From Gammaproteobacteria bacterium (GTDB lineage Bacteria > Pseudomonadota > Gammaproteobacteria > VBWC01), in the NCBI GenBank assembly GCA_006218035.1, contig VBWC01000003.1:117251-181250 (forward strand): 64,000 nucleotides of DNA, given 5' to 3'. A model generated the notes under the pieces. It ran no database searches and was not told where the DNA came from. It saw only the letters and a list, made by a program, of their open reading frames with translations. The translations under genes were made by a program, and so were the position numbers. This document shows, in pieces, positions 10,681-40,840 of this stretch. Each line of letters begins with the position of its first letter. Positions within the stretch are counted from its first letter, which is position 1.

Positions 10681-11742
10681 TTGAAAATATTTGTCACCGG
10701 GGGCGCGGGGTTTATCGGCTCTGCTGTCATTCGCGACCTGATTACGGGGTCAGAAGACACCGTAGTAAACATCGACAAGCTGACCTATGCCGGCAATCTG
10801 GAATCACTTTCTGCGGTCGAGGCCAATCCCCGCTATACATTTGAACGCGCCGATATCGGCGCGGCTCCGGTACTGCGAAAGCTGTTCGAAAAGTACCGGC
10901 CGGACGCGGTACTGCATCTGGCTGCAGAGTCTCATGTCGACCGATCTATCGATGGACCTGCCCAGTTTATTTACACCAATATCGTAGGAACCTACGCACT
11001 GCTGGAGGAAACCCTGCGGTACTGGCAGTCATTGGGTAGAGAGAGGCGATCGAGTTTTCGTTTCCACCACGTGTCCACCGACGAGGTGTACGGGTCGCTC
11101 GGCGAAACCGGGTTGTTTGGTGAAGATTACCCGTATCAACCCAGTTCACCGTATTCGGCAAGCAAGGCGGCGTCGGATCATCTGGTGCGAGCGTGGCATC
11201 ATACCTACGGTCTGCCGGTTGTTGTCAGTAATTGCTCGAACAATTACGGGCCGTACCAGTTTCCCGAAAAGCTGATACCCCTTGCAATCCTGAATGCGCT
11301 CGCCGGAAAGCCGATTCCGGTATATGGCAATGGCGAAAACGTCCGTGACTGGTTATATGTCGACGATCACGTGCGGGCGCTGCGGATGATACTTGCACAT
11401 GGCAACATCGGTGAAAGTTATAACGTGGGCGGGCATAACGAAAAAACCAATATCGAGGTTGTCGAAACCGTGTGCGGCTTGCTGGATGACCTGCGGCCGT
11501 CGTCCCCCTGTCGTCCGCATGCCTCATTGATAAAGTTCGTTGAAGACCGCCCCGGGCATGACAAGCGGTATGCGATTGACTCCGGCAAGATCGGTCGCGA
11601 GTTAGGTTGGCAGCCGCAGGAAACTCTCGACAGCGGCTTGCGCAAGACGGTGCAGTGGTATCTGGAGAATCAGTCCTGGAGCGAACACATACGTGACGGC
11701 CGATATCGCGGTGAGCGACTGGGTCTGGAGCGTGTGAAGTGA
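10681..11742 (+). CDS. rfbB: dTDP-glucose 4,6-dehydratase
   Basis: It has the N-terminal Rossmann motif [13 protein letters not shown] and the catalytic YSASKAASD motif. It begins at a TTG codon after a GGGGAAGGGA ribosome-binding site. Confidence 0.88.
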
Positions 11743-12626
11743 AGGGGATCATATTGGCAGGTGGCACCGGCACGCGGTTATACCCGCTGACACGGGTCGT
11801 CAGCAAACAGCTTCTGCCGGTGTATGACAAGCCGATGATTTACTATCCGCTGTCGGTTCTGATGTTATCCGGTATACGCGAAATCCTGGTGATTTCGACC
11901 CCGGAGGATCTGCCGCAGTTTCAGAAACTCCTGGGTGACGGATCGCAGTGGGGGCTGTCGTTCGTTTATGCACAACAGCCGCGTCCGGAAGGCATTGCGC
12001 AGGCATTTCTGATTGGTGAGTCGTTTATCGGCAACGACGCTGTATGCCTGGTGCTCGGCGATAATCTTTTTTATGGCCACGGGCTGGTGCGTGCGTTGCA
12101 GGAAGCAGTGGCGCGTCGCACGGGGGCCACGGTGTTTGGTTATCGTGTTCGTGACCCCGAGCGCTATGGAGTACTTGTATTCGATAAAAAAGGAAAGATC
12201 GTTGATATAGAGGAAAAGCCGAAACGCCCGCGTTCCAATATCGCGGTTACCGGGCTTTATTTTTATGATAATGACGTTATCGGTATTGCCAGGCAGATTA
12301 TGCCGTCGGCGCGCGGTGAGCTTGAAATCACCGACGTGACCCGCGCCTATCTTGACCGTGGTGATCTGCAGGTTGAAGTGTTGGGGCGTGGCGCGGCGTG
12401 GCTCGACACGGGCACACACCACTCGCTGCTGGAAGCCAGCCAGTTCATCGAGGTAATCGAGTCCCGCCAGGGCCTGAAGGTCTCCTGTCCGGAGGAAATC
12501 GCGTGGAGGATGGGTTTTATTGATGACGCGCAGTTAGAGATGTTGGCGCGGCCGCTGGAGAGTAGCGGGTATGGTCGGTATCTTCTCGACATGCTTGACC
12601 GCAAGAAATCAGACGATCGCGATTAA
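11739..12626 (+). CDS. rfbA: glucose-1-phosphate thymidylyltransferase
   Basis: The N-terminus [18 protein letters not shown]...[17 protein letters not shown] is typical of RmlA. The GTG start overlaps the rfbB stop. Confidence 0.9.
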
Positions 12627-12648
12627 TCTATATTGGTTCGATACGACA

Positions 12649-13212
12649 ATGAAAATTATCAAAACCAGCTTGCCCGACGTGGTCGTTGTTGAACCCGATG
12701 TATTTGCCGACGTGCGCGGAAAGTTTATGGAAACCTTCCGGGTCAATCGGTATCAGGAGGCCGGAATTCCTGGCCCGTTCGTGCAGGACAATTTTTCCCG
12801 TTCGCAACGCGGGGTGTTGCGCGGTCTACATTATCAGTTGCAAAAACCGCAAGGCAAGCTGGTCCAGGTGCTGCGCGGTGAGGTGTTTGACGTCGCCGTG
12901 GATATCCGGCGCGGATCACCGACCTTTCGCCAGTGGACTGCCGCGATACTGTCGGAGGAAAACAACCGGCAGATGTATATTCCGCCGGGTTTTGCGCACG
13001 GCTTTCTGGTGTTGAGCGAGACCGTCGACTTCGTTTACAAGTGCACTGACTACTATGATCGGGATGACGAATGCGGTGTGTTGTGGTCGGATCCGGCGAT
13101 CGGGATACGCTGGCCGGGCGGTGAGCAGCTTTTGTCAGCGAAGGATAGTGCCTTGCCGGAACTTGCGGCGATACCTGATGAAAAGCTGCCGGTATATCAG
13201 GCGTCACCATGA
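12649..13212 (+). CDS. rfbC: dTDP-4-dehydrorhamnose 3,5-epimerase
   Basis: The RmlC cupin motifs VRGKFMETFR...RGLHYQ...KLVQVLRGEVFDVAVDIR are present. The start was trimmed from the ORF-track coordinate 12571 to the ATG at 12649. Confidence 0.88.
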   Translation: MKIIKTSLPDVVVVEPDVFADVRGKFMETFRVNRYQEAGIPGPFVQDNFSRSQRGVLRGLHYQLQKPQGKLVQVLRGEVFDVAVDIRRGSPTFRQWTAAILSEENNRQMYIPPGFAHGFLVLSETVDFVYKCTDYYDRDDECGVLWSDPAIGIRWPGGEQLLSAKDSALPELAAIPDEKLPVYQASP

Positions 13213-14084
13213 CAATGCTGGTTACCGGTTGTGGCGGGCAGGTGGGAACCGAGCTGCTGCGCCGGGCGCGTGCCCACGGAATCGACGTGATCGGATTGTC
13301 CCACCAGGAACTCGATATCACCCGTTCAGATCAGGTTGATGCCGCTCTGTCGCGATTGCCCGTTACCGTCGTTGTGAATGCCGCCGCTTATACGGCGGTG
13401 GATCGCGCCGAGCATGACAAAGCGGCGGCGTTTGCCGTCAATCGCGACGGCCCTGCCAATCTGGCGCAATTTTGTACCGGGCAGGGAATCCCGTTGATCC
13501 ATATTTCCACGGATTATGTATTCGACGGAAACAAGCCGGGACCGTACACCGAGAATGATCCCGTTGCGCCATTGGGCGTGTATGGGGCGAGCAAGGCGGC
13601 GGGTGAGCAGGCGGTCCGGGAGCTGGCGCCCAAGCATGTGATCCTGCGTACTGCCTGGGTGTATAGCGCCCACGGCCATAATTTTGTCAAAACGATGTTA
13701 AGGCTGGGCCGCGAGCGCGATGAGATTGGCGTCGTGGCCGACCAGGTCGGCTGTCCAACGGCGGCCGGGGAAATCGCGGTAGCCATTATTACCGTGATAA
13801 AGGCGATGCAGGCGGGCGGTGACCCGTGGGGAACCTACCATTTCTGTGCGGCCGGTCAGGCGAGCTGGTACCAATTCGCCTGCCGGATCTTCGAGATTGC
13901 CTCACGTTACCGGCCGTACCCGGTGACGGTAAAGCCTATTCCCGGCACGGCATATCCGACACCAGTACGTCGTCCGGCAAATTCGGTACTGGATTGCTCC
14001 AGAATCGAGGAAACCTTCGACCTAGACCGACGCCCGTGGCCAGGGCCTCTCGCTGACGTTCTCGGCGAAATTCATAATAATTAA
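13209..14084 (+). CDS. rfbD: dTDP-4-dehydrorhamnose reductase
   Basis: It has MLVTGCGGQVGTEL and the YGASKAAGEQ active-site motif. The ATG overlaps the rfbC stop. Confidence 0.88.
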   Translation: MTMLVTGCGGQVGTELLRRARAHGIDVIGLSHQELDITRSDQVDAALSRLPVTVVVNAAAYTAVDRAEHDKAAAFAVNRDGPANLAQFCTGQGIPLIHISTDYVFDGNKPGPYTENDPVAPLGVYGASKAAGEQAVRELAPKHVILRTAWVYSAHGHNFVKTMLRLGRERDEIGVVADQVGCPTAAGEIAVAIITVIKAMQAGGDPWGTYHFCAAGQASWYQFACRIFEIASRYRPYPVTVKPIPGTAYPTPVRRPANSVLDCSRIEETFDLDRRPWPGPLADVLGEIHNN

Positions 14085-14175
14085 TAAAAACAATAATAAA
14101 TATAGTCTATCTAATCTGTAAGGTCCGCTGTGTATGGGTGGTCCGTCGGTACCGGCCTCTCGCACAATGCCCCCC

Positions 14176-14203
14176 TAAAGTTATGCTCCCGAACGGCCGT
14201 TAA
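14176..14203 (+). promoter_or_regulatory. sigma-28 (FliA) type promoter upstream of fliC
   Basis: TAAAG is followed by a 16-nt spacer and GCCGTTAA (consensus TAAA-N15-GCCGATAA). It lies about 110 nt upstream of the fliC ATG. Confidence 0.6.
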
Positions 14204-14313
14204 CCTCATCGGAAGCGGTAAAAATTTCCGGTTTTTCGGCAAGTTTATCCGCTAGTGAAAAATCTGAGCCCGGCAACGCCGTTCAAAGGTTGTCAGGGCG
14301 CGAGGAGAGAAAA

Positions 14314-15744
14314 ATGCCTCAAGTAATTAATACTAACGTTGCGTCGTTAAACGCCCAACGTAACCTGAATAAGTCCCAGACCGAATTGTCCGTCGCGCTG
14401 CAGCGTCTGTCTTCCGGTCTGCGTATCAACAGTGCCAAGGACGATGCCGCGGGACTGGCGATTTCGGAGCGGTTCACCACGCAGATTCGTGGTTTGAACC
14501 AGGCTGCCCGTAACGCGAGTGATGGTATTTCGCTGTCGCAAACGGCGGAATCGGCACTTGGCGAGTTGACAGCCAACCTGCAGCGTATCCGCGAGCTGGC
14601 TGTCCAGTCGGCGAACGGCTCTAACTCTGCATCCGATCGTGCGGCTCTTGATCTTGAAGTGCAGCAGCGTCTCGCGGAAATTGATCGTATCGCGACGCAA
14701 ACCACGTTCAACGGTCAGCGCGTCCTTGACGGTACGTTCGGTTCGCAGCAGTTCCAGGTCGGCGCGAACGTTGGTGACACGATCACTATAGATCTGAGCA
14801 CCGGTGTTCGTCTGACCCAGATCGGCCGTATCGCCAGCAGCACCGGCAGTGCGGTAGATGCAAACGCGTTGGCGGCCAATGACGTGACGATTAACGGTAC
14901 TGCAGTAGGTGCCGCCGTCGCTGGCACGGGCGCTCAGCAGACCGTCGACAGTGCTTATGCGAAGACCAACGCGATCAATAATTCCGGTATCGCGGATTTG
15001 ACAGCAACCGCCATCACGGGCACCAAGGGCTCGGACAATGCGAGCCAGGGTGTTACATTGACTGACGCTGGCGACTCGTATTCGCTGACCATCAACGGTG
15101 TGGCGGTTTACAGCACGACAGGTGCAACGACAGTCACCCAGGCCTCTTTGGTCTCAACGATTAACTCGTTTTCGACGCAGACCGGTGTGTCTGCCGCTGT
15201 CAGCGGTACAGCGCTTAATCTGACCACGACCGATGGGCGGAATATCGTAGTGGTCGCTGCGCAAACGGAAGCGGGCGGCGGTACGGCCGACACCACGAAA
15301 GTTGCGTTCTCCGCCGGCACGACGACGACACGCGGTACGGTCAAATTGCAATCGTCAGCCGCTATATCGGTAACCGGTACCGTGGCGCGTATTGGCCACA
15401 GCGTGGGCAGCATTGCGCTGGATACCAATACCTCTCTTTCCGGAATAGGCGTGACCACGATTACCAACTCCAACACGGCGATACAACGTGTGGATTCGGC
15501 GCTGACATCGGTCAGTAATCTGCGTAGTACCTTCGGTGCTATCCAGAGTCGTATGTCGTCCACGATCTCGAACCTGGAAGCGATCTCGGAAAACCTCGCT
15601 TCTTCACGCAGCCGAATCCTGGATGCGGATTTCGCCGCCGAAACGGCGTCGTTAACCCGCTCCCAGATTTTGCAGCAGGCAGGTATTGCGATTCTGGCCC
15701 AGGCGAACGCGGCTCCGCAGAATGCTCTGGCCTTGTTGCAGTAG
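14314..15744 (+). CDS. fliC: flagellin
   Basis: The conserved termini are MPQVINTNVASLNAQRNLNKSQ and LSLLQ-type ...APQNALALLQ. The central domain is rich in Ser/Thr/Gly/Ala. The start was trimmed from 14290 to the ATG at 14314 after a GAGGAGAG ribosome-binding site. Confidence 0.93.
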   Translation: MPQVINTNVASLNAQRNLNKSQTELSVALQRLSSGLRINSAKDDAAGLAISERFTTQIRGLNQAARNASDGISLSQTAESALGELTANLQRIRELAVQSANGSNSASDRAALDLEVQQRLAEIDRIATQTTFNGQRVLDGTFGSQQFQVGANVGDTITIDLSTGVRLTQIGRIASSTGSAVDANALAANDVTINGTAVGAAVAGTGAQQTVDSAYAKTNAINNSGIADLTATAITGTKGSDNASQGVTLTDAGDSYSLTINGVAVYSTTGATTVTQASLVSTINSFSTQTGVSAAVSGTALNLTTTDGRNIVVVAAQTEAGGGTADTTKVAFSAGTTTTRGTVKLQSSAAISVTGTVARIGHSVGSIALDTNTSLSGIGVTTITNSNTAIQRVDSALTSVSNLRSTFGAIQSRMSSTISNLEAISENLASSRSRILDADFAAETASLTRSQILQQAGIAILAQANAAPQNALALLQ

Positions 15745-19033: not shown

Positions 19034-19381
19034 GTGAGTTCGATGCAGTCGGAAACGGATACATCCGCGCAGCGTGCGCCATTAACGTTGATCATCGAGC
19101 TTACCCGAAAAATGCTTGCCGCCGCCCGTCAGAGCGACTGGGACACGGTATTGAGTTATGAAAATCGGCGCCGGCTGATCATGCAACAGACGTTTACGAA
19201 CGTTCCTGCATTGTCGGAGCTAAGCAATCTGGCCAGTTGTATCGAGGAGATATTAGGTCTCGATCGCGAGCTTATCGCACTTGCCGAGGGCGCCAGAACG
19301 GGGTTTGCAGATCAATTGAGCGTACTCAGGACCAGCAAAAAGGCCGTAAAGGCCTATACATTACCCGCTACCGCCAGTTAA
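19034..19381 (+). CDS. fliT: FliT-like flagellar chaperone (small helical protein after fliS)
   Basis: It is assigned from its position immediately after fliS, its 115-aa size and its helical character. The similarity to FliT is weak. Confidence 0.45.
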   Translation: MSSMQSETDTSAQRAPLTLIIELTRKMLAAARQSDWDTVLSYENRRRLIMQQTFTNVPALSELSNLASCIEEILGLDRELIALAEGARTGFADQLSVLRTSKKAVKAYTLPATAS

Positions 19382-19439: not shown

Positions 19440-22400
19440 TCACGATTTGCCGGTTTTGGCACTCAGCCCGACGCTGTCAAGAGCAGACCGCAACAGCTCG
19501 ATGTATTGATTCCGTACCGATGTCTTGTGGGCGATCAATCTTGCGGATTCGGCAGCGATGTCCATTGTTCGCAGCCGTTCCACAACGTCAACAGCGGACT
19601 CAACCGACGGATCGATGGTTTTCGATAGAAAACCATTGGCGCTCGTGAAGTATTGCGGCGCCGATATTACAAATGCGGGGATGCCCAGCGAGGCGCACAG
19701 GCCGGCGTCCTGCGCGCGCGTTGTAATCGTCATATCGAACGCATCGTAGATGCGCAGATAGTCAATGGCGTCGCTTGAGTAGTGAAAGTCCATGATATCC
19801 CCGAGCAGCGGCGTCAGCTCGGCGAGCTCACTGATATGGTGGCAGACCAGCGCACACTCGTAGTGCCGGGCGAGTTCCCGGTATAGATTCACGGTGTAGT
19901 GAAAGATCGACGGGTCCAGGCATTCGCTGGTTCTGCGTGATATCCCGGGCGTCGATAACGCGATGCGTTTTGTTTGCGTGCGCCATGTTGCGGTCTTCGC
20001 GCACAGCAACGTTGGGCAAGGCAACTGATGGGGATTCAGCGGGCGAAGCGTATTCCCACACGCTGTGTCGCGAACCGTGACCAGCAGCGAGCGGATAAGT
20101 AACAGTTGATCCAGGACCGCGACTTGCTCGAATTGGAAATCTTCCGTGTCCGACGCTGAGCCCAGGCCCAGATACATGGTCGGTATGGTCGTTTTGATAA
20201 GTCTATCGACCAACGGGCCGGCCATATCGCCTCGCCATGCCGTGATGCCGGTGAAAATTGCCAGATCAGCCGTTTCCAGATTGATGCCTGGATGCCATGA
20301 GTTGTCGCGCGTCGCTGACGGGTCGCGATAGTCGGCAGAGTCACGGCCATACGATCTATCCGGCGCGTCAGACGCTAACTGCGCTATGTCGGGGTGTCGT
20401 CGGTGAACAATCGGGTTGAAGTCCCCGATCAGTTCCGTGAGAAGATTCTGGATGCCATACCGCGCGAACTCCCCGTCCGTGTTGGTTGAGATCAGGATAT
20501 TCGGCCGAACCGTCGGCCGGGAACGATTGAAACGCCGTCCTATCATCAAATTCGGTACGTCGTGCGATCGGTCATAGTAGCGCGCAGGCACCTGGCGGGT
20601 GGCGGCGACGGCACGAAGTTCCGTGGCCAGCGCGGCGAAGGTGCCGGGCCAGTCCTGCGGCTCGGGCTGGCGAAACAGACGCATACTCGGATACCACGGG
20701 CTGTCGCTACGATCGAGCAACCAGCGCCAGTCCGCCACATAGGACAACAGCACCCATACTGGTTTTCCCATCGCTCCGCCAAGATGAGCGACGGATGTAT
20801 CGACGGATATGACCAGGTCCAGGTTTTCAACCAGCGCGGCACTGTCAGCAAACGTTAGTTGTTCGTTGGCCGCGTCGATCAGATGCATCCCCGCTGGCGG
20901 GTTGGCTGTCTGCTCCGCCCCCGTCCCTTTTTGCAGGCTGTGGAAAGTGACGCCAGGTATATCGCAGAGGCGTGCGAAATCTGCGAGCGAGCACGAGCGG
21001 TTCTTGTTATTGGCGTGACGGGGGTTTCCCGCCCACGCGAGTCCAACATTGAGGTGTCCCGGAACCATTTTTTCCTTCCACAAGCCGATACGTGCCGGGT
21101 CGGCGTGCAGATAGGGAACATCATTCGGGATGGTTCTAAACGTCGTACCGAACAGCGCCGGCAGGCTCAGCAGATAGGTGTGATAGTCGAAATCGACATC
21201 GGGTGCGGAACGCGTGTCCTGCACAATGAGCTGGTCGACGCCCTGCAAACCGGTGAAGAGATCGATCAATCCCGGCGGGCACTCGAATATCACATCGGCA
21301 CCCATTGCCTTGAGCATCGGCAGATACCGGACGAAATGCATTGAGTCGCCGATCCCTTGTTCCGCGTGCACCAGAATCCGCTTTCCGGCCAGCGGCTCGC
21401 CTTTCCAGCGCGGCTTTTTCATGGTCCGATGGTCGGGCCGTCGCTCCAGTATCTGGATACGCGATTCGTATGCCTTCCATGCGTCGGCAAAGCGGCCGAG
21501 CGTCAACATCACGATACCCTTGTTCAGATGGGCGTCCGCAAGGTCGGGCTGGATCATTATTGCCTCATCGAACCGGCCGTAGGCCGCGCTATAGTCACCC
21601 ATGTCCTTAAACGCTGTTCCCATGTTCATATGGGCAGCCGCGTAATCGCGCTTGAGCGACAACGCTGAGCGGTAATGCTGTATGGCGCCGGCAAAATCAC
21701 CGTTCGATTTGAGCGCGTTACCGAGGTTGCAATGCGCTTCGGCCATGCCGGGCTGTAGCTTCAGGGCGCTTTCAAAGTAGGCGATGGCGTCAGCGGTCTT
21801 GCCTTGTTGGCAGAGCGCATTGCCATAGCTGTTTAGCGTATGCGCATGTGCGGGATTGATCGCCAGTGCTTTTTCAAATAGCGGTAATGCGTCATCGATG
21901 CGATTTTGTTGCAGCTCCGCGAGCCCCAGGCTGTTCAGGGTGTCGACGTTGTCGGGCTCTATCGTCAGCAGCCGCCGATAACAGGCCGCCGCGGCTGCCG
22001 GCTCGCCCTTGCCATGCTGAAGTTCCGCGAGTATACGCAGCGCGTTGGCGTTGTTTCCGTCGCACTCCAGCGTCCGCCTGAACGCGTGGACTGCGTCGTC
22101 GGCGCGGTTCAGTTTCAACAGCGCGACGCCGAGGTTGAAATGGGCGAGAGAGAATGCCGGAGCGAGCTCCGTCGCTTTCGTAAAATGCTCGATCGCCAGC
22201 TCCGGATTGTTCCGCTTGAGCGCTACGTGCCCGAGGTTGTTGATCGCCTCGGGAAACGCCGGTCGCAGATGCGCTGCGCGGATATAACATTGCTCGGCAT
22301 CGTCGATGCGTTCCAGTTCAAGGTAGATACTGCCAAGATCATTCAGGATGCCCGGTTGTGCGGGGTCGATTGACAATGCCTGCTCACAGTGACGCACCGC

Positions 22401-22808
22401 CTCATCACGCTGCCCCTGGTTCTGCAATAGCCCGGCAAGCGCAATATGCGCCGCCAGATACAACGGGTCTATCGATAGCGCACTGCGGTGACAGGTAATG
22501 GCCTTGGCGGTATCGCCCGCGGCGGCGCAGGCCGAGGCCAGGTTCTGATAGTAGGACGGGGCGCGGGGATTGTGGCTGATTGCCTGTTCGATCAGGCTCG
22601 TCGCCGCCGCCGGATTGCCCTGTTGCAGCTCGGTCACACCCAGCAGATTCAAGGCGTCCGCATGACCGGGACTGGTGGCGAGAATCTTGCGATACAACCG
22701 CGCCGCACGCGCTATGTCGCCGGACTCATGCGCGCGCACGGCATTATCGAGTAATGCTGCGGATCGGGTTCCGACGTCGGCGATTTTCTCGCTGGTGTTA
22801 ATGCTCAT
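19440..22808 (-). CDS. TPR-repeat / GT9 (heptosyltransferase-like) glycosyltransferase with additional C-terminal domain (1122 aa)
   Basis: The N-terminal ~450 aa hold about 12 TPR units (repeated A..Y....L...P..A.A..NLG). The GT9 signatures are KRILVHAEQGIGDSMHFVRYLP and LVISVDTSVAHLGGAMGKPVWVLL. The C-terminal ~380 aa are of unclear family and may be pyruvyl-transferase-like (ITTRAQDAGLCASLGIPAFVIS). Confidence 0.75.
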   Translation of the reverse strand: MSINTSEKIADVGTRSAALLDNAVRAHESGDIARAARLYRKILATSPGHADALNLLGVTELQQGNPAAATSLIEQAISHNPRAPSYYQNLASACAAAGDTAKAITCHRSALSIDPLYLAAHIALAGLLQNQGQRDEAVRHCEQALSIDPAQPGILNDLGSIYLELERIDDAEQCYIRAAHLRPAFPEAINNLGHVALKRNNPELAIEHFTKATELAPAFSLAHFNLGVALLKLNRADDAVHAFRRTLECDGNNANALRILAELQHGKGEPAAAAACYRRLLTIEPDNVDTLNSLGLAELQQNRIDDALPLFEKALAINPAHAHTLNSYGNALCQQGKTADAIAYFESALKLQPGMAEAHCNLGNALKSNGDFAGAIQHYRSALSLKRDYAAAHMNMGTAFKDMGDYSAAYGRFDEAIMIQPDLADAHLNKGIVMLTLGRFADAWKAYESRIQILERRPDHRTMKKPRWKGEPLAGKRILVHAEQGIGDSMHFVRYLPMLKAMGADVIFECPPGLIDLFTGLQGVDQLIVQDTRSAPDVDFDYHTYLLSLPALFGTTFRTIPNDVPYLHADPARIGLWKEKMVPGHLNVGLAWAGNPRHANNKNRSCSLADFARLCDIPGVTFHSLQKGTGAEQTANPPAGMHLIDAANEQLTFADSAALVENLDLVISVDTSVAHLGGAMGKPVWVLLSYVADWRWLLDRSDSPWYPSMRLFRQPEPQDWPGTFAALATELRAVAATRQVPARYYDRSHDVPNLMIGRRFNRSRPTVRPNILISTNTDGEFARYGIQNLLTELIGDFNPIVHRRHPDIAQLASDAPDRSYGRDSADYRDPSATRDNSWHPGINLETADLAIFTGITAWRGDMAGPLVDRLIKTTIPTMYLGLGSASDTEDFQFEQVAVLDQLLLIRSLLVTVRDTACGNTLRPLNPHQLPCPTLLCAKTATWRTQTKRIALSTPGISRRTSECLDPSIFHYTVNLYRELARHYECALVCHHISELAELTPLLGDIMDFHYSSDAIDYLRIYDAFDMTITTRAQDAGLCASLGIPAFVISAPQYFTSANGFLSKTIDPSVESAVDVVERLRTMDIAAESARLIAHKTSVRNQYIELLRSALDSVGLSAKTGKS

Positions 22809-23056
22809 TCGCAGGGCAATCTCTCTTCATTAACTGTCGATCGCGTATCGGTGTAACGATGCTGGCCCTAAAAATGCATAATTTGTACCAGAGCCATCAT
22901 GTTAACGAGTGGACCCGGCATGCCGCTGCGATACCCGCAAAGCGGTCGATTCTTGCCGTATCAAACGATATGCTGGCCGATCACGCAGCAAGTTCCGCGA
23001 TACCCGACAGGCAATGACGACAAATAATTGACCGGAAGAGGCGGGCTGTCGAAGGC

Positions 23057-24880
23057 ATGGCACATACACAAAGGCATGATAGTTCGGTGACGACAGTCCC
23101 AGACAACACTCAGGCGGCAACGATTGATCGATGGATCGACGCGGCCTTGCAACACCACCAGGCCGGCCGTTTGCCCGATGCCGAGGCGCTGTATCGCCAG
23201 GCACTTGTGGAGCAACCCGATCATCCGGATGCACTGCATCTGCTCGGGTTCGTGGCGTATCAGTGCGGCCGGCACCAGCAGGCGCTTGAACTGATTTCGA
23301 CCGCCTTACGCCGCTCCCCGGATGCGCCCGATTTTCACAACCATCTCGGTCTGGTCCTGGCGGCGCTGGGCAGACCGGCAGACGCGATAGCGAGCTATGG
23401 CAACGCCCTGCGACTCGCGCCGGAATTTCCGGAAGCGCATAACAACCTCGGCATCCGGTTGCGCGAAGACGGTCGCCTGACGGAGGCGGAAGCGCACTAC
23501 CGCGCCGCGGTGGCGGCCCGGCCAGTGTTTTCGGATGCGTGGAATAACCTCGGCAACGTGTGTCGTGAACGCGGTGAATTCGATGCGGCCCTGGCGGCGT
23601 ATCGCGAAGCGCTGCGGCAACGGCCCGATTTCGCCGAGGCGCACAGCAATATCTTGTTTACATTGAGCCACTACTTGCTGGCTGATCCGGATCAGCTGCT
23701 GCAGGAACATCAGGGCTGGGACCGCGTGCATGGCGTTGCCGGGCGCGCACACGCCCACGCGCATCCGCGTCGCGGGGATCCGGAAAAACGCCTGCGTATC
23801 GGCTATGTATCGCCGGATTTTCGTTTGCACGCCGCGAACAGTTTCTTTGAGTCGCTGATCGCCGCGCACACCCGCGACGCGGTAGAGATCTTCTGTTACG
23901 CCGAAGTATCCCGGCCGGATGCGGTGACAGAGCGCATCCGCGTGAACGCCGATGTTTGGCGGAGTACCGTGGGGCTGTCGGATGACGCGCTCGGGCGGCA
24001 GATTCGCGACGACGGTATCGATATTCTGGTCGATCTGGCCGGGCATACGACCGGCAACCGGTTGCGCGTGTTTACCGGGAAACCGGCGCCGATACAAGTA
24101 TCTTATCTCGGCTACTGCGCGACGACCGGCCTGACCGCGATGGACTACTGGATTACCGACGGGGTGATTCACCCGCCCGATACGATCGAAAGGACAGTCG
24201 AAGCGATCATCCGGTTGCCGCGCTGCTGGGTGACCTACCGGCCGCCTGTGGACGCGCCGCCGGTTCGTTTACCGGCACGCAGTGGTATTACGTTCGGCTG
24301 TTTTAACGAACGTTCCAAGATCACGCCAGCCACGATCGCGCTGTGGAGCAGTATCCTGCTCGAACTGCCTGATGCCCGCCTGGTGCTCAAGGCGCGCCAG
24401 TACGCCGATGACAGTGTCCGGCAGGCGATCATCGATACCTTTACGCAGCACGGGGTGGCCGCAAACCGGTTGGTGTTTCTGCCAGCTACCGGTTACCTCG
24501 ATTACCTCGCCGCCTATCAAGACGTCGATATCGCGCTGGATCCGGTACCTCGCGCGGGCGGCGTGACCACAGCGGACGCGTTGTGGATGGGCGTGCCGGT
24601 GATCACCTTGTGCGGGCAGCGTTTCATCGAGCGCCACGGCGCGAGCCTGTTACGTGCCGCCGGCATGGACGAGTGGATCGCCGTGACGCCGCGGGATTAC
24701 GTTGACAAGGCGCTGGCGCTCGCGCGTGACCACGTGCACCGGCGTACTATGCGGCTGGCCCAGCGTGACCGTATGGCGGCGTCGCCATTGTGTGACGCAT
24801 TGGCCCATGCGCGCGCCATGGAACAAATCTACCGGGACATGTGGCGCGCATACGTGCGCAACACACCCCTGACTTCATGA
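23057..24880 (+). CDS. TPR-repeat protein with C-terminal GT41 (O-GlcNAc-transferase/SPINDLY-like) glycosyltransferase domain (607 aa)
   Basis: About 5 TPR units span aa 25-200. The C-terminal domain carries RIGYVSPDFRLHA...APIQVSYLGYCATTG...GGVTTADALWMGVPVITLCGQRFIERHGASLL, typical of the bacterial OGT-like family (COG3914). Confidence 0.8.
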   Translation: MAHTQRHDSSVTTVPDNTQAATIDRWIDAALQHHQAGRLPDAEALYRQALVEQPDHPDALHLLGFVAYQCGRHQQALELISTALRRSPDAPDFHNHLGLVLAALGRPADAIASYGNALRLAPEFPEAHNNLGIRLREDGRLTEAEAHYRAAVAARPVFSDAWNNLGNVCRERGEFDAALAAYREALRQRPDFAEAHSNILFTLSHYLLADPDQLLQEHQGWDRVHGVAGRAHAHAHPRRGDPEKRLRIGYVSPDFRLHAANSFFESLIAAHTRDAVEIFCYAEVSRPDAVTERIRVNADVWRSTVGLSDDALGRQIRDDGIDILVDLAGHTTGNRLRVFTGKPAPIQVSYLGYCATTGLTAMDYWITDGVIHPPDTIERTVEAIIRLPRCWVTYRPPVDAPPVRLPARSGITFGCFNERSKITPATIALWSSILLELPDARLVLKARQYADDSVRQAIIDTFTQHGVAANRLVFLPATGYLDYLAAYQDVDIALDPVPRAGGVTTADALWMGVPVITLCGQRFIERHGASLLRAAGMDEWIAVTPRDYVDKALALARDHVHRRTMRLAQRDRMAASPLCDALAHARAMEQIYRDMWRAYVRNTPLTS

Positions 24881-27189
24881 GCGTCAACCAACATATCGCG
24901 GGATCGCGGCTCGACAAACTGCTGGCCGACGCGGTGGCGCTGCATCAGGCCGGGAATCTCGCCGCGGCAGATACCCTGTATCGCGAGGCGCTGGCGATTG
25001 ATCGGCAACTCCCCGGCGCACTTTACGGTGCCGGTGTGGTCGCTCATCAGCTGGGCCACAACGATACGGCGATCGAATTGCTCGATGCGGCGCTACGCCA
25101 TCGTCCCGATGAACCGGCCTGGCTCAACATGCGCGGTCTGGTGTATGCGGCAATCGGCCGGATTGAGATGGCGCTCGAGGACTTTCAGCATGCCATCAGG
25201 CTTGAGCCGGACTTCGCCGAGGCGTACAACAGCATCGGTGTGACGCTGCGCAAGCAGGGTCGGGTCGATGAGGCGATCGAGTATTACCGGCAGGCGATTG
25301 AATGTCGTCCGGACCTCGTTATGGCGCATAACAATCTTGGCAACGCTCTCAAGAGCAAAGGGGCGCTCGACGCAGCGTTAGACCATTATCGCCATGCCTT
25401 GACGCTGCAGCCGGATTTCGTCGAGGCGATCAACAATCTCGGTACGGTCTACACGATGCAGGGGTCACTCGACGAGGCGCATGACGCATTCGAAAGAGCA
25501 CTGCAACTGCGGCCGGAATACCCGGACGCGCTGAATAATCTTGGCGTGGTTTATCAGAAGCGGGGAGACATTTCAGCCGCGCGGCAGTGCTTCGAGCGCG
25601 CGCTCCGGATCAGTCCGGGATTCGCCGCCGCGCACGCGAATCTGGCGTCCGCGCAGAATGCGCAGGAGGAGTTTTACAACGCGATCGAGTCTTGCCGCCA
25701 GGCACTGGCGATTGCGCCGGAGTTTCCCGAGGCCTATTTCAACCTGGGCATTGCGTTCAAGGATCTCGGTTTGCCGCTGAAGGCGCTGAAATACTTCGAA
25801 ACCGCCGTCAGACTGCGGCCGAACTACGCTGGCGCCTACAACGGCATCGCCAACGTCTGCCGCGACCAGGGGCAATTCGAGCTGGCCGGAACGTTCTATC
25901 GTGAAGCGTTGAGCGCTGATCCAACGAACCATGAAGTACATAACAATCTGCTGTTTACCATGAGCCATCACGTGATGACCACTCCGGAGGCGTTACTGGA
26001 GGCGCATCGGGACTGGGCGGCTAGCCATTGCCATGAAGGACGGGTGCATCGGTATACGCACTCTCCCGCGACGGCCCATGACGGGCGACGCTTGCGTATC
26101 GGTTACGTGTCACCGGATTTCCGCCGGCATGCCGCCGCCATCTTTCTGGAGCCGTTGCTCGCGGCTCACGACCGGCGGGTCGTCGAGATTTATTGTTACG
26201 CCGAACTTGTCCGTACCGATCAGGTGACCACGCGCTTCCGTCAGAGCGCGGACGCCTGGCGCGATACCGCCGGGATGAGCGACACGCAGCTGGCCCGACA
26301 GATCGTCGATGACCGGATCGATATCCTTGTCGATCTGGCCGGGCATACCGCCGGCAATCGGTTGACGATGTTTGCCTTCAAGCCGGCACCGGTGCAGGCG
26401 ACCTATCTCGGCTACTGTGCGACCACCGGTCTGGAAGAAATCGATTACTGGATCAGCGACGACGTGATACATCCGGCGGATACCTGCGAACTGGCGGTTG
26501 AGCAGATCCTGCGGTTGCCGCGCTGCTGGGTGAGTTACCAGCCGCCGGTCGATGCGCCGGAGGTGCAGATATCGCAACACGATCACATTACATTCGGATG
26601 TTTCAATGACCGCAGCAAGATCACGCCGGAGGTGGTCGCTGCGTGGAGCGGGATTCTCGATCGCGTACCTGGTTCGCGGTTGGTGCTGAAAGCGCGCCAG
26701 TACGCCGATGCGGACATCAATGCCGAGCTGATCGGTATGTTCCGGCAACATGGTATTGACGCGACGCGGCTCGAGTTCCAGCCGCTGTCGCTGCCCGGCG
26801 AATATCTGGCCAGTTATCACGCGATCGATATCGCGCTCGATCCGTTCCCGCGGCACGGCGGCGTTACTACGGCGGATGCCTTGTGGATGGGTGTGCCCGT
26901 GGTGACGCTGATTGGCGAGCGGTTCATCGAACGGCATGGTGCCAGCCTGCTGGCGGCAATCGGCGCACAGGACTGGATTGCCCAAGACCTCGAATGCTAT
27001 ATCGAGATCGCCGTGGCGTTGGCAGCGGATCCCGGTCGGCGTCACGCGTTGCGCCTGACGCAGCGGCAACGCGTGCGCGAGTCACCGTTGTGCGATCCGC
27101 AGGGATTGGCCAGGGCGATGGAGGGGCTCTATCGGCGGATGTGGCGCCGATATGTCCAATCGGCTTACGGTTCAACTCCCGCTTGCTAG
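24877..27189 (+). CDS. paralogous TPR-repeat / GT41 (OGT-like) glycosyltransferase (770 aa)
   Basis: The TPR array is longer (about 10 units), and the C-terminal domain is near-identical in motifs to the upstream gene (RIGYVSPDFRRHA...APVQATYLGYCATTG...GGVTTADALWMGVPVVTLIGERFIERHGASLL). Its ATG forms an ATGA overlap with the upstream stop. Confidence 0.8.
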   Translation: MSVNQHIAGSRLDKLLADAVALHQAGNLAAADTLYREALAIDRQLPGALYGAGVVAHQLGHNDTAIELLDAALRHRPDEPAWLNMRGLVYAAIGRIEMALEDFQHAIRLEPDFAEAYNSIGVTLRKQGRVDEAIEYYRQAIECRPDLVMAHNNLGNALKSKGALDAALDHYRHALTLQPDFVEAINNLGTVYTMQGSLDEAHDAFERALQLRPEYPDALNNLGVVYQKRGDISAARQCFERALRISPGFAAAHANLASAQNAQEEFYNAIESCRQALAIAPEFPEAYFNLGIAFKDLGLPLKALKYFETAVRLRPNYAGAYNGIANVCRDQGQFELAGTFYREALSADPTNHEVHNNLLFTMSHHVMTTPEALLEAHRDWAASHCHEGRVHRYTHSPATAHDGRRLRIGYVSPDFRRHAAAIFLEPLLAAHDRRVVEIYCYAELVRTDQVTTRFRQSADAWRDTAGMSDTQLARQIVDDRIDILVDLAGHTAGNRLTMFAFKPAPVQATYLGYCATTGLEEIDYWISDDVIHPADTCELAVEQILRLPRCWVSYQPPVDAPEVQISQHDHITFGCFNDRSKITPEVVAAWSGILDRVPGSRLVLKARQYADADINAELIGMFRQHGIDATRLEFQPLSLPGEYLASYHAIDIALDPFPRHGGVTTADALWMGVPVVTLIGERFIERHGASLLAAIGAQDWIAQDLECYIEIAVALAADPGRRHALRLTQRQRVRESPLCDPQGLARAMEGLYRRMWRRYVQSAYGSTPAC

Positions 27190-39100: not shown

Positions 39101-40840
39101 ATGAAGTTAGTCCTGCTCAACCCTTTTACACGAATGCACATCCGCAGCCGGTTGCTGCTGGGTTTTGGCACGCTGATCCTGATTATCTGCGGCGGCTACG
39201 CGATCAGTTCGACCAATCTTATATACCTGCAACGCGAACAGGCGAAGATTCCCGAGGCGATGCACCAGGTTGAGGTCGCAGTGGGCGATGTCCTCACGTT
39301 GCGGCACGCACAGCAACTGGTCCTTAAGTGGGGCTACCCGGTGCTCCAGGAGCGAACCACACTGGAAAAATATTTTGTTACCGACGGCGTCGCTGCGCAA
39401 CAGGGTATATATGAGGAGTTTCAGCGACTGGGTGATGAAATCGATAACATTGCCACCCAATTGAGCAGCGTCATATCGGACAAGCAAGCCGCGACAAAAA
39501 TTGCCGAGATACAGAGTCAGCAACAGAAAATTCATCTGGCTGCGATCGAGGTTATTGCCGCGTTCGATGGCGAGGGCGAATTTGGCGACGAGGCGCAGTC
39601 GCAGTTGGCAGCGTTTGTTCAGCAGATTGATGTGCTTCTGTCATTGATACTGGGCTTCGAACAATTAGTGAACGAAAAGGGCGAGCTTGCCACCGATATT
39701 CAGAGCGACCGATTTCAGGCGGTCGCCAGGAACATCGAAGGATCAAAACAGGTTATTGCAGCGTCGCAATACATCAGCCTGTTCCTTGTCCTGGTTGGGT
39801 TGGCGTTCGCCATGTCGGTCAGTGTGATGATCTACCGATCGATCGTTCTTCCTTTACGGTATTGCACGATGCTCTCGCGGCGCATCGCCGCGTTCGATCT
39901 GAGACTGGACAACAGCCGTGACGCGCCGACCGGGCCCGATGCATTGTCGCGGCTCGCGGCCGATTTGAACTCGATGCGCTCGTCATTGCGTGACCTGATT
40001 GAAAAGATCGTTGCGGCGGCCAATCACCTCAGTGTTTCGGGTGATGAGTTCCAGCGTTCCTCGGTGCGGGTTCGGGAAGTGGCTGGCAGCCAGGCGGCGA
40101 GGTCCGGCGACGCGTCGGCCGCAACAGGGCAGATGTTGGCGACGGTCCAGGAGATTGCCCGGGCAGCAGGCGAAACAGCCGAATTTTCGCATCAGGTTGA
40201 TGAGAAGGTTCGGTACAGCGCCGATGTCGAGGCCAAGGTGACACTTGAAGAGATGGAGCACGCGATTCAGGCGGTTGATGCGAACAACGAAGAGATCCGG
40301 TTTGTTTCCGGTTCGGCAAAAGAGGTTGGTGAGATCGTCGGTTTCATCAGCGGTGTTGCCGAGCAGACCAACCTCCTCGCGTTGAACGCCGCCATTGAGG
40401 CAGCCCGGGCCGGTGAGCATGGCCGCGGATTTGCGGTAGTTGCTGACGAGGTGCGTAATCTGGCGAAGCGAACGAAGGAGGCCACGGCCGAGATAAAGGA
40501 AAAGGTCGAGCGCATGCAGGCCGAGGTCCGTAAGGCCTCGACCAGAATGGACAGCAGCCGTGAGTCTGTGCGGCGCGGTTCGGTTGCGGTCAACCGGATT
40601 GTCGATCTGTTGCGGGAAATCGAGACCATGAACACCAAGTTGCGCGTGCTCAACGAGAATATTGCGGCGTCCACGGAAGAGCAAACGAATACATCGGAAG
40701 AGATCGCCAGGAGTGTCGCGGGCGTGAATACCAGCTGCGGCGACCTTACGAAACATGCGGAAGATATCCATGCTCAGGCCAAAGGTGTCTATGACATGAC
40801 GGAAACCATCAGCAAAGAAATAATGAAATTCAAGATTTAG
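39101..40840 (+). CDS. methyl-accepting chemotaxis protein
   Basis: It has two transmembrane segments flanking a ~180-aa periplasmic region, then HAMP. The highly conserved MCP signalling domain [38 protein letters not shown] is present. Confidence 0.9.

What the first reader, a model, noticed from the sequence alone, without database searches (positions are those of the whole stretch)
19440..22808. 1122-aa antisense tri-domain protein: TPR array + GT9-like heptosyltransferase fold + unassigned C-terminal domain
It is the only long minus-strand gene inside roughly 60 kb of co-directional flagellar genes. It fuses about 12 TPRs to a clear GT9 signature (GIGDSMHFVRYLP and DTSVAHLGGAMGKP). A further ~380-aa C-terminal domain could not be assigned. 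A weak resemblance to the polysaccharide pyruvyl-transferase (CsaB/WcaK) TxRxH motif region is noted as ITTRAQDAGLCASLGIPAFVIS. A TPR-GT9-X fusion in a flagellar locus is not a described flagellin-modification enzyme, as far as established families go.
Basis: partly seen in the sequence, partly recalled or inferred. Interest (0 to 1): 0.6.

Follow-up and report, generated by a model that had tools for sequence, protein, structure and literature searches.

The report
Three-domain flagellin-glycosylation enzyme, decaying C-terminus
This gene in a flagellar sugar-decoration island fuses a protein-binding repeat array, a conserved sugar-transferase domain and a pyruvyl-transferase-like domain that has lost its signature residues here, pointing to an undescribed flagellin-glycan modification route.

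Summary
The 1122-aa minus-strand ORF at 19440-22808 is real and is found identically in eight independent assemblies. It has three parts. The first is about 11 TPRs. The second is a well-conserved GT-B domain whose nearest solved folds are GT9 heptosyltransferases (WaaF, WaaC, TibC). It is below Pfam's GT9 threshold. The third, C-terminal domain is homologous (E 1e-79) to stand-alone ~365-aa proteins that all carry PF04230 (polysaccharide pyruvyl transferase).

The gene lies between fliT and two TPR-GT41 genes, near rmlBADC and fliC. A conserved sigma-54-like divergent promoter block lies upstream. Elsewhere the TPR-GT9-like and PF04230-like parts are adjacent genes near flagellins, or are fused in either order. 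This is a Rosetta-stone link.

In this species group the C-terminal domain has lost 23 of 81 near-invariant family positions, including the PEP-binding His (TTRVHG became TTRAQD). It no longer matches PF04230. Its dN is about three times that of the other two domains (dN/dS 0.37 versus 0.17-0.20).

Best reading: a TPR-tethered flagellin glycosyltransferase whose fused pyruvyl-transferase module is degenerating or repurposed. It is a new variant of a known kind. The donor sugar, the acceptor and the relationship to FlmG are untested.

The parts
19440..22808 (-). Whole gene: 1122-aa TPR / GT9-like / PF04230-like fusion protein. No signal peptide is evident.
   Evidence: ORF. Identical protein on 8 contigs. 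NCBI KAF0193035.1, misnamed 'Flp pilus assembly protein TadD'.
21444..22781 (-). TPR array (aa ~10-455, 11 Pfam TPR_1 stretches). Proposed flagellin-binding module.
   Evidence: PF00515 E 8.8e-66 with 11 stretches. 63% identical to ortholog P0153. dN/dS 0.20 versus the close relative. The flagellin-binding role is inferred from FlmG (PMC7591256).
20574..21443 (-). GT9-like GT-B glycosyltransferase domain (aa 456-745). Proposed active sugar-transfer module.
   Evidence: AlphaFold model pLDDT 90. Best PDB folds are GT9: 3tov E 3e-9, 1psw, 2h1h, 4rb4. PF01075 20.5 bits, below the cut-off of 22. More than 7300 homologues, mostly TPR + weak PF01075, 450-560 aa. dN/dS 0.17.
21318..21356 (-). GIGDSMHFVRYLP motif: first strand-loop-helix of the GT-B N-lobe, with an invariant G-x-G-D.
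   Evidence: E44 Q45 G46 G48 D49 are invariant in 41 family members. Topology from the model. Equivalence to the WaaC Asp13 catalytic base is inferred, not shown.
20760..20801 (-). DTSVAHLGGAMGKP motif: C-lobe nucleotide-sugar-binding signature. This is the only stretch that matches PF01075 and TIGR02193.
   Evidence: PF01075 match to mid-domain residues 212-245. TIGR02193 match to 210-248. D231, T232, H236, L237, G239 and A240 are invariant or nearly so.
20499..20573 (-). Interdomain linker (aa 746-770), low model confidence.
   Evidence: pLDDT below 50 for C-terminal model residues 1-13 and mid-domain model residues 303-321.
19443..20498 (-). PF04230-related (polysaccharide pyruvyl-transferase-like) GT-B domain (aa 771-1122), degenerate in this lineage.
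19707..19724 (-). TTRAQD: degenerate form of the family's T-T-R-V-H-G (R-x-H) motif. His became Gln and Gly became Asp.
   Evidence: Alignment A1 and conservation counts. The close relative has TARMDG. Ortholog P0153 keeps TTRIHG. Pvg1p H339 and CsaB H308 are reported as PEP-binding His residues (PMC10435577); their equivalence to this motif's His is inferred, not shown by alignment.
22862..22891 (.). Conserved 30-bp block CTGGCCCTAAAAATGCATAATTTGTACCAG in the divergent intergenic region. It reads as two overlapping, divergent sigma-54-type -24/-12 elements. The minus-strand one is TGGTAC-N5-ATGC at 22890->22876, about 68 nt upstream of the ATG.
   Evidence: Pattern matches. Identical 15-mer at the same distance in syntenic L081. 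28 of 30 bases are conserved in an otherwise poorly conserved IGR. Promoter function is inferred.
23087..27189 (+). Context: two tandem TPR-GT41 (SPY/OGT-like) genes, 597 and 770 aa, divergently transcribed from the target.
   Evidence: PF13844 E 1e-51 and 1.5e-52. Gene calls in L083. Conserved in L081 and L089.
10681..15744 (+). Context: rmlB-rmlA-rmlC-rmlD (dTDP-L-rhamnose synthesis) followed by flagellin fliC.
   Evidence: Pfam hits. The same order is found in L083, L084 and L089. The flagellin central region is 30% Ser+Thr.

Best explanation
The gene encodes a cytoplasmic, flagellar-regulon enzyme of a flagellin glycosylation island. The N-terminal TPR array docks the enzyme on flagellin (inferred). 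The conserved GT9-like GT-B domain transfers a sugar from a nucleotide sugar onto flagellin Ser/Thr or onto a growing flagellin glycan (inferred). The donor is undetermined. dTDP-L-rhamnose from the adjacent rml operon and ADP-heptose, by fold kinship, are the candidates. The C-terminal domain descends from a PF04230 pyruvyl-transferase-like enzyme. In other bacteria that enzyme is a separate neighbour of TPR-GT9-like genes and flagellins, and it presumably adds a PEP-derived pyruvate ketal to the sugar just installed. Fusion lets it share the TPR tether. In this species group the module has lost its PEP-binding His and about a quarter of the family's near-invariant residues, and it evolves faster than the rest of the protein. 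It is therefore most likely catalytically dead or much weakened, and is kept as a folded, non-catalytic or structural appendage. Shown here: the architecture, the homologies, the folds, the synteny, the gene-neighbour and fusion link, the residue losses and the rate asymmetry. Inferred: flagellin as acceptor, the donor identity, the pyruvylation chemistry and the loss of activity.
For: Architecture and folds.

Flagellar glyco-island context: flgL-rmlBADC-fliC-flaG-fliD-fliS-fliT-[target]-GT41-GT41-pilZ-fleQSR. The same order and orientation occur in the 55-66%-identical ortholog locus L081 and in close relative L089.

Conserved sigma-54-like block 68-69 nt upstream of the ATG in both the window and L081. 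FleQ and FleR are encoded nearby.

Rosetta-stone link. In L004 a TPR-GT9-like gene overlaps the start of a stand-alone PF04230-like gene by 4 nt. In L002/L003 and L010 a stand-alone PF04230-like gene lies next to flagellins, and in L002 a TPR-GT9-like gene is also present. Eight of about 21 close-homologue loci have a GT9-like gene within 6 kb. P0153, P0154 and P0421 have the same fusion, and P0162 has the reverse order. P0154's contig carries a flagellin-like ORF about 6 kb downstream.

GT9-like domain intact: it shares all 34 columns that are invariant across alignment A2, which includes it, and dN/dS is 0.17.

C-terminal decay. There is no PF04230 hit, whereas 32 of 32 homologues hit. It keeps 58 of 81 conserved positions, versus 74-80 in the other fusions. 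H289Q and G290D fall in the R-x-H motif, whose His is inferred (not shown by alignment) to match a PEP binder in Pvg1p and CsaB. Relative P0421 adds P188L, T286A and G315S. There are 45/352 amino-acid differences versus 35/745 (p 5e-6), and the Nd:Sd odds ratio is 1.9 (p 0.03).

The TPR-as-flagellin-tether precedent is FlmG (PMC7591256).
Against: No experiment links any member of this TPR-GT9-like family or this PF04230 subfamily to flagellin. The TPR-GT9-like family has more than 7300 members in very diverse bacteria, most with unknown context.

The C-terminal domain is still a full-length open reading frame in both lineages, with dN/dS 0.37, well below 1. Some function is therefore selected. 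CsaB H308S and H308K retain partial activity, so loss of His alone does not prove inactivity.

The rate asymmetry rests on one pairwise comparison, and its Nd:Sd test is only p 0.03.

Ketal-pyruvylated flagellin glycans are not reported in the searched literature.
Confidence: 0.55

Rival explanations
1. The C-terminal domain is not decaying but has been retooled. It remains a catalytic GT-B-type transferase with a different donor or acceptor, for example one adapted to a rhamnose-based glycan or to a non-PEP donor. The lost 'invariant' residues would then reflect a specificity switch.
For: The ORF is intact and full-length in both the window lineage and relative P0421. dN/dS is 0.37, well below 1. 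R287, R169, D170, the P-C-P motif (in the window) and the H350-K351 pair are retained. The model is confident (pLDDT 85). Partial activity of CsaB H308S and H308K shows that the His is not absolutely required.
Against: The substitutions hit several separate signature motifs at once: a 2-residue loss (T and R) within a 4-residue deletion in the TTRxW motif, GDD to DGE, PEW to TAW, RVHG to RAQD, and HSxRSxT to APxYFxS. The same motifs keep drifting between two very close relatives: AQD versus MDG, P188L and G315S. That pattern is expected for relaxation, not for a newly fixed specificity.
Confidence: 0.25
2. The middle domain is a true protein or glycan heptosyltransferase that uses ADP-heptose, as TibC does on autotransporters. 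The adjacent rml operon would instead feed the two GT41 enzymes.
For: The best solved folds are all GT9 heptosyltransferases, including the protein O-heptosyltransferase TibC. The only Pfam and NCBIfam matches are heptosyltransferase models. In L004 the TPR-GT9-like/PF04230-like pair sits just upstream of hldE-gmhB-gmhA, separated only by a sulfotransferase gene. Heptose-synthesis genes are found near PF04230-like homologues in 17 of 82 loci.
Against: No heptose-synthesis genes were detected in the window by tblastn with the L004 HldE, GmhA and GmhB proteins, whereas rmlBADC lies beside fliC. Identity to solved GT9s is only 12-13% and profile searches do not reach them. Donor specificity cannot be read from the fold.
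Confidence: 0.3
3. The acceptor is not flagellin. It could be another protein or glycoconjugate, such as the FliD cap, pilin, LPS or EPS. The flagellar location would then reflect co-regulation only.
For: The TPR-GT9-like family is very large and found in many lineages, with generic annotations such as TadD, PilF or 'TPR protein'. P0154's immediate neighbours are a TPR protein, a radical-SAM enzyme and a methyltransferase rather than flagellar structural genes.
Against: The gene's position between fliT and the other TPR-GTs is conserved in three loci. Flagellin genes lie next to stand-alone relatives in alphaproteobacterial loci. P0154's contig does hold a flagellin-like ORF. TPR plus GT is the recognised hallmark of flagellin glycosyltransferases.
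Confidence: 0.12
4. The whole gene is a non-functional remnant, or a TPR scaffold (as in its 'TadD' annotation) with no enzymatic role.
For: The NCBI annotation is 'Flp pilus assembly protein TadD'. The C-terminal domain is degenerate.
Against: The TPR and GT9-like domains are under purifying selection (dN/dS 0.20 and 0.17). All family-invariant GT9-like residues are kept. A conserved promoter-like block lies upstream. The 3.4-kb ORF is intact in independent assemblies and in relatives. The TadD label reflects TPR similarity only.
Confidence: 0.04

Closest known systems
FlmG of Caulobacter crescentus (TPR + GT-B flagellin O-glycosyltransferase; PMC7591256)
   Same: Both have an N-terminal TPR array followed by a ~290-aa GT-B domain. 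Both are cytoplasmic and lie in a flagellar or glycosylation context. In FlmG the TPR part binds flagellin and the GT part sets donor specificity.
   Different: FlmG is 596 aa with two domains. It uses CMP-pseudaminic or CMP-legionaminic acid, and no nonulosonate pathway was seen in the annotated part of the window. It has no PF04230-like third domain. Sequence homology to FlmG could not be tested because no FlmG sequence was available.
GT9 heptosyltransferases WaaC/WaaF and the protein O-heptosyltransferase TibC (BAHT family)
   Same: These are the best structural matches of the middle domain (Foldseek E 3e-9 to 1e-4, TM 0.5-0.6). The G-D loop after strand 1 and the D-T-x-x-x-H-L C-lobe motif are shared in kind. 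TibC shows that GT9-like enzymes can O-glycosylate proteins in the cytoplasm (PMC4358343).
   Different: Identity is only 12-13%. PF01075 is below threshold. No profile-level sequence link to any solved GT9 was found. The TPR fusion is absent from WaaC, WaaF and TibC. The donor is unknown.
Ketal pyruvyl-transferases of PF04230 (Pvg1p, CsaB, WcaK, WbbZ)
   Different: The window domain itself does not match PF04230. It has Gln in place of the His and lacks 23 of 81 subfamily-conserved residues. Known members act on polysaccharide, SCWP or N-glycan acceptors, not on flagellin glycans. Known members are not fused to a glycosyltransferase or to TPRs.
Unfused gene pairs and alternative fusions of the same two modules (L004, L002, P0153, P0154, P0162)
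   Same: The same TPR-GT9-like and PF04230-like modules are present. P0153 is a full-length ortholog in a syntenic flagellar locus.
   Different: Those copies keep the canonical PF04230-type motifs, with 74-80 of 81 positions retained. P0162 has the opposite domain order.

Membership tests
TPR-tethered flagellin glycosyltransferase (FlmG class) | N-terminal TPR array followed by a GT-B glycosyltransferase domain in one polypeptide | tested here: met
   11 TPR_1 stretches. GT-B model pLDDT 90 with GT9 fold matches.
TPR-tethered flagellin glycosyltransferase (FlmG class) | Encoded in, and co-regulated with, a flagellar or flagellin-glycosylation locus | tested here: met
   Lies between fliT and the TPR-GT41 genes, near rmlBADC-fliC. 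Synteny is conserved in L081 and L089. Conserved sigma-54-like block upstream. Co-regulation itself is inferred.
TPR-tethered flagellin glycosyltransferase (FlmG class) | Sequence homology of the GT domain to FlmG (CCNA_01524) | not tested
   No FlmG sequence could be obtained with the available tools. The papers give only a domain description.
TPR-tethered flagellin glycosyltransferase (FlmG class) | TPR domain binds flagellin and the enzyme glycosylates flagellin | not testable with these tools
   Needs two-hybrid or pull-down assays and flagellin mass spectrometry.
CAZy GT9 / Pfam PF01075 (heptosyltransferase) | PF01075 match at or above the gathering threshold | tested here: not met
   20.5 bits versus a cut-off of 22, E 3.3e-4. 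Only profile positions 172-205 of 247 are matched. NCBIfam heptosyltransferase models score 11-21 bits versus cut-offs of 170-467.
CAZy GT9 / Pfam PF01075 (heptosyltransferase) | GT-B fold closest to solved GT9 enzymes | tested here: met
   Top Foldseek PDB hits are 3tov, 1psw, 2h1h/2gt1 and 4rb4.
CAZy GT9 / Pfam PF01075 (heptosyltransferase) | Catalytic Asp in the strand-1 loop and the C-lobe D-T-x-x-x-H-L sugar-nucleotide motif | tested here: inconclusive
   GIGD and DTSVAHL are present and invariant in the family, and they lie in the expected secondary-structure positions. Residue-level equivalence to WaaC or TibC could not be shown, because the profile finds no PDB sequence hit.
CAZy GT9 / Pfam PF01075 (heptosyltransferase) | Uses ADP-heptose as donor | not testable with these tools
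   Only context hints are available. Heptose genes lie close to the gene pair in L004, whereas rml genes lie in the window.
Pfam PF04230 polysaccharide (ketal) pyruvyl-transferase | Match to the PF04230 profile | tested here: not met
   No hit at E up to 10 for the domain alone or with flanks. All 32 homologues do match.
Pfam PF04230 polysaccharide (ketal) pyruvyl-transferase | Homology (common descent) with PF04230 proteins | tested here: met
   phmmer E 8e-79 to 3.5e-21 against 32 PF04230 proteins. 325 hits in the 1.84-billion-protein library.
Pfam PF04230 polysaccharide (ketal) pyruvyl-transferase | PEP-binding residues (Arg and His of the R-x-H motif; Pvg1p R337/H339, CsaB H308) | tested here: not met
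   The Arg is kept and the His is replaced by Gln (TTRAQD). Relative P0421 has TARMDG. The subfamily consensus is TTRVHG. The residue roles come from PMC10435577. The mapping of this motif onto Pvg1p and CsaB is inferred, not aligned.
Pfam PF04230 polysaccharide (ketal) pyruvyl-transferase | PEP-dependent pyruvyl transfer to a sugar | not testable with these tools
   Needs a phosphate-release assay with the cognate glycan.

The most novel reading that the evidence does not exclude
A PF04230 subfamily, genetically coupled to TPR-GT9-like glycosyltransferases and flagellins in Alpha- and Gammaproteobacteria, carries out an undescribed modification of flagellin O-glycans. The coupling takes the form of adjacent genes, fusions in both orders and flagellin neighbours. 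The modification would be a pyruvate ketal, which adds negative charge as nonulosonic acids do. The TPR-GT9-like partner would install the acceptor sugar, possibly heptose or rhamnose. This window shows the pathway being dismantled: the pyruvyl-transferase module of the fused enzyme is decaying while the glycosyltransferase module is kept.
Probability: 0.3. Interest if true: 0.7.

Novelty: new variant of a known kind. Interest (0 to 1): 0.5.

Why it matters
Flagellin glycosylation shapes motility, filament stability, phage susceptibility and immune recognition. Only a few flagellin glycosyltransferase classes have been characterised (Maf, FlmG, GT2/GT4 types).

This locus has three points of interest:
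- It places a very large, uncharacterised TPR + GT9-like family (more than 7300 members, routinely mislabelled TadD, PilF or 'TPR protein') inside a flagellin glycosylation island.
- It gives gene-fusion and gene-neighbour evidence that a pyruvyl-transferase-like enzyme works with that family. This predicts a charge-adding flagellin glycan decoration that has not been reported.
- It offers a natural pair for testing what the third domain does. One is an ortholog with a canonical module (P0153). The other is this lineage with a degenerate one.

It also shows how a fused catalytic domain can decay in place while the rest of the protein stays under selection.

Tried and rejected
- Direct Pfam and NCBIfam scans of the C-terminal 378-428 aa gave nothing beyond a chance thiolase match at E 0.08.
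- Single-sequence and profile searches of PDB sequences with the C-terminal domain found no real hit. The same was true for the middle domain. The untrimmed A2 profile was swamped by TPR hits.
- The genome-contig scan used consensus motifs that the window domain lacks. It therefore returned only canonical stand-alone relatives.
- Two metagenome scans found no relative: one with the window domain, one with a window+P0153 alignment.
The relative's ortholog was reached through the 90% cluster instead.
- FlmG homology could not be tested, because no sequence was available and the papers give only 'GT-B superfamily'.
- The NCBI name 'TadD' was rejected because it rests on TPR similarity only.
- The pseudogene reading for the whole gene was rejected on dN/dS and the intact ORFs.
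- A sigma-70 and terminator scan gave counts no better than shuffles.
- Sigma-54 consensus matches across the window are not enriched overall (83 versus 76 expected). Only the conservation of the block in L081 gives the site weight.

Full report
**Observation.** The ORF is as described: ATG at 22808, stop at 19440-19442, minus strand, 1122 aa. The three quoted peptides are present at the stated places. The surrounding ~60 kb is a co-directional plus-strand flagellar cluster. It runs FlgL, rmlB-A-C-D, FliC, FlaG, FliD, FliS, FliT, then after the target two TPR-GT41 genes, a PilZ protein, FleQ, FleS, FleR, FliE/F and on to FliI, FlhA and MotB. Other long minus-strand ORFs inside this block have no family match and overlap real genes. 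The only other real minus-strand gene is a REC-GGDEF-EAL protein at 60804-62684, just beyond the block. The exact protein is encoded on eight contigs from several independent samples. It is deposited from a 'Gammaproteobacteria bacterium' MAG as KAF0193035.1/TND06716.1 and named 'Flp pilus assembly protein TadD'. That label reflects only its TPRs.

**Anatomy.** Residues ~10-455 carry 11 Pfam TPR_1 stretches (E 9e-66).

Residues 456-745 form a GT-B domain. The AlphaFold model built on 41 homologues has pLDDT 90. Its best solved matches are all GT9: a Veillonella GT9 (3tov, E 3e-9, TM 0.62), WaaF, WaaC and the protein O-heptosyltransferase TibC. By sequence the link is thin. PF01075 reaches 20.5 bits against a cut-off of 22, over 34 residues only. 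Heptosyltransferase NCBIfam models score 11-21 bits. A TPR-free family profile finds no solved structure.

The domain belongs to a very large family of its own. It has more than 7300 proteins at E below 1e-3, typically 450-560 aa, made of TPR plus a weak PF01075 hit, from many phyla. The window copy keeps every invariant residue of a 41-member alignment. These include the E-Q-G-x-G-D loop after the first strand and the V-D-T-x-V-A-H-L-x-G-A motif.

The window copy escapes the Pfam model because it has lost the family's signature residues. Of 81 columns that are at least 90% conserved in 30 stand-alone homologues, it keeps 58. The losses cluster in motifs:
- the T and R of S-T-T-R-x-W, lost within a 4-residue deletion;
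- N-x-G-D-D became N-T-D-G-E;
- Y-N-R-N-P became H-R-R-H-P;
- G-T-P-E-W became G-I-T-A-W;
- L-S-x-Q-G became L-S-T-P-G;
- T-T-R-V-H-G became T-T-R-A-Q-D;
- H-S-A-R-S-x-T became A-P-Q-Y-F-T-S.

A His in an R-x-H context is a PEP binder in the two characterised ketal pyruvyl-transferases, Pvg1p H339 and CsaB H308. H308A and H308R are inactive, and H308K and H308S are partly active (PMC10435577). I infer that the R-x-H of this subfamily corresponds to that site. I could not show this by alignment.

**Relatives.** An exhaustive HMMER search of 1.84 billion representatives found 325 homologues. The best is P0153, 1123 aa, a full-length ortholog. Its identity to the window protein is 63% (TPR), 66% (GT9-like) and 55% (third domain). 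Its locus is syntenic: flagellin-FlaG-FliD-FliS-FliT-[gene on the opposite strand]-GT41-GT41-PilZ.

P0154 (972 aa) has the same domain order, and its contig carries a flagellin-like ORF about 6 kb downstream. P0162 (827 aa) has the reverse order, PF04230-like then TPR then GT9-like. In unfused form the two modules are neighbours:
- In L004 a 555-aa TPR-GT9-like gene overlaps the start of the PF04230-like gene by 4 nt. A TPR-GT41 gene and hldE-gmhB-gmhA are nearby.
- In L002/L003 and L010 the PF04230-like gene sits beside alphaproteobacterial flagellins and a TPR-methyltransferase. In L002 a TPR-GT9-like gene is also present.
- Eight of the roughly 21 closest-homologue loci have a GT9-like gene within 6 kb, although several of those contigs are very short.

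Adjacency, fusion and fusion in both orders together make a classic Rosetta-stone argument that the two modules act in one pathway. All these other fusions keep 74-80 of the 81 conserved positions. The decay is therefore specific to the window's lineage.

**Selection.** The 90% cluster of the target holds a second member, P0421. It comes from a close relative (FlhA 97% identical) with an identical locus layout. Nei-Gojobori estimates between the two genes are:

| Region | dN/dS | dN |
|---|---|---|
| TPR | 0.20 | 0.023 |
| GT9-like | 0.17 | 0.025 |
| Third domain | 0.37 | 0.069 |

Neighbouring genes for comparison give GT41a 0.24, GT41b 0.18, FliD 0.09 and FliC 0.02. Amino-acid differences are 45/352 in the third domain against 35/745 in the first two (Fisher p 5e-6). 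The Nd:Sd contrast is weaker (odds ratio 1.9, p 0.03).

The relative shares the ancestral losses and adds hits at otherwise invariant sites: P188L in P-C-P, T286A and G315S. Its R-x-H region reads T-A-R-M-D-G, against T-T-R-A-Q-D in the window. The former active-site motifs are still drifting. However, there is no stop codon or frameshift in either lineage, and dN/dS is well below 1. The domain is therefore still selected as a folded unit.

**Regulation (noticed in passing).** The 248-bp divergent intergenic region holds a 30-bp block, CTGGCCCTAAAAATGCATAATTTGTACCAG (22862-22891). It is 28/30 identical in the L081 intergenic region, while the rest aligns poorly. The block reads as two overlapping, divergent -24/-12 sigma-54-type elements. 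The minus-strand element, TGGTAC-AAATT-ATGC, is identical in both loci. It lies 68 and 69 nt upstream of the respective start codons. FleQ and FleR, both sigma-54 activators, are encoded a few kb away. Consensus matches alone are at chance level in the window. The weight comes from the conservation.

**Mechanism.** I propose a cytoplasmic enzyme of the flagellin glycosylation island.
- The TPR array tethers it to flagellin, as shown for FlmG (PMC7591256) and as widely used to recognise flagellin glycosyltransferases.
- The GT9-like domain transfers a sugar.
- The PF04230-like module ancestrally decorates that sugar with a PEP-derived pyruvate ketal, and fusion lends it the TPR tether.

The donor is open. 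rmlBADC next to fliC points to rhamnose. Fold kinship and the heptose genes close to the gene pair in L004 point to ADP-heptose. The two GT41 enzymes are alternative users of either donor. In the window's lineage the third module is most likely inactive or much weakened. The flagellin central region is 30% Ser+Thr, which is compatible with O-glycosylation but proves nothing. None of the acceptor, donor or chemistry claims is shown; they are inferences from context and family.

**Comparison and novelty.** By architecture the closest characterised protein is FlmG, but homology to it is untested. By fold the middle domain is GT9-like but fails GT9's sequence criterion. The third domain descends from PF04230 but fails that family's profile and lacks its PEP-binding His.

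I found no report of ketal-pyruvylated flagellin glycans. A 2019 review of pyruvate substitutions does not list flagellin. The only link found is a genomic note of a PF04230 gene in the Citrobacter flag-2 variable region (PMC6993521). I also found no characterised TPR-GT9-like protein.

I rate this a new variant of a known kind: a TPR-tethered flagellin-modifying enzyme with an unusual third module, a well-supported gene-fusion link, and a documented in-place decay. Interest is moderate (0.5). The architecture is rare but not unique, and all functional claims await experiment.

Noticed in passing
window 22862-22891 (and L081 5705-5745): A 30-bp block in the divergent intergenic region is conserved 28/30 with the syntenic L081 locus. 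It reads as two overlapping, back-to-back sigma-54-type -24/-12 elements that share a central ATGCAT. One faces the target gene (68 nt from the ATG) and one faces the GT41 genes.
   Followed up: partly
window 10681-14084: A complete rmlB-rmlA-rmlC-rmlD operon (dTDP-L-rhamnose synthesis) is inserted between flgL and fliC. This suggests a rhamnose-containing flagellin glycan. The same layout occurs in L083, L084 and L089.
   Followed up: partly
window 23087-24880 and 24877-27189: There are two tandem TPR-GT41 (OGT/SPINDLY-like) genes of 597 and 770 aa with a 4-nt overlap. They are conserved in L081 and L089. Together with the target, the island holds three TPR-tagged glycosyltransferases.
   Followed up: partly
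L028, L036, L043 (Rubrivivax) and 14 other loci: More distant members of the PF04230-like family sit directly next to gmhB-hldE-gmhA (ADP-heptose synthesis). Heptose genes are seen in 17 of 82 fetched loci. Others sit next to rmlBADC. This suggests that the family often acts on heptose- or rhamnose-containing glycans.
   Followed up: partly
L004 2292-3491; L002 12689-13567; L008, L009, L010: TPR-fused SAM-methyltransferases recur next to the PF04230-like and TPR-GT9-like genes and flagellins. L004 additionally carries sulfotransferase genes. TPR tagging looks like a general way of directing modifying enzymes to flagellin.
   Followed up: no
window 60804-62684 (minus strand): A REC-GGDEF-EAL protein (626 aa) lies just past the flagellar and chemotaxis block. 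It is the only other real minus-strand gene in the window.
   Followed up: yes
window 39101-40840: A methyl-accepting chemotaxis protein gene sits inside the flagellar export cluster between fliK and fliL. The annotation comes from the syntenic L088 gene calls.
   Followed up: no
L089 13428-13697 versus window 19034-19381: FliT is called as 89 aa in the close relative but as 112 aa in the window lineage's own assemblies (115 aa by the window ORF list). FliT is also the least conserved neighbour versus L081 (47% identity).
   Followed up: no
window 19440-22808: The public annotation of this protein is 'Flp pilus assembly protein TadD'. Many family members are likewise labelled TadD, PilF or 'TPR protein'. 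This is a systematic misannotation driven by the TPRs.
   Followed up: yes
P0160 (598 aa): This is another fusion of the PF04230-like module, here to an N-terminal region that was not identified by any search. The 'sulfotransferase-like' label is my visual guess only.
   Followed up: no
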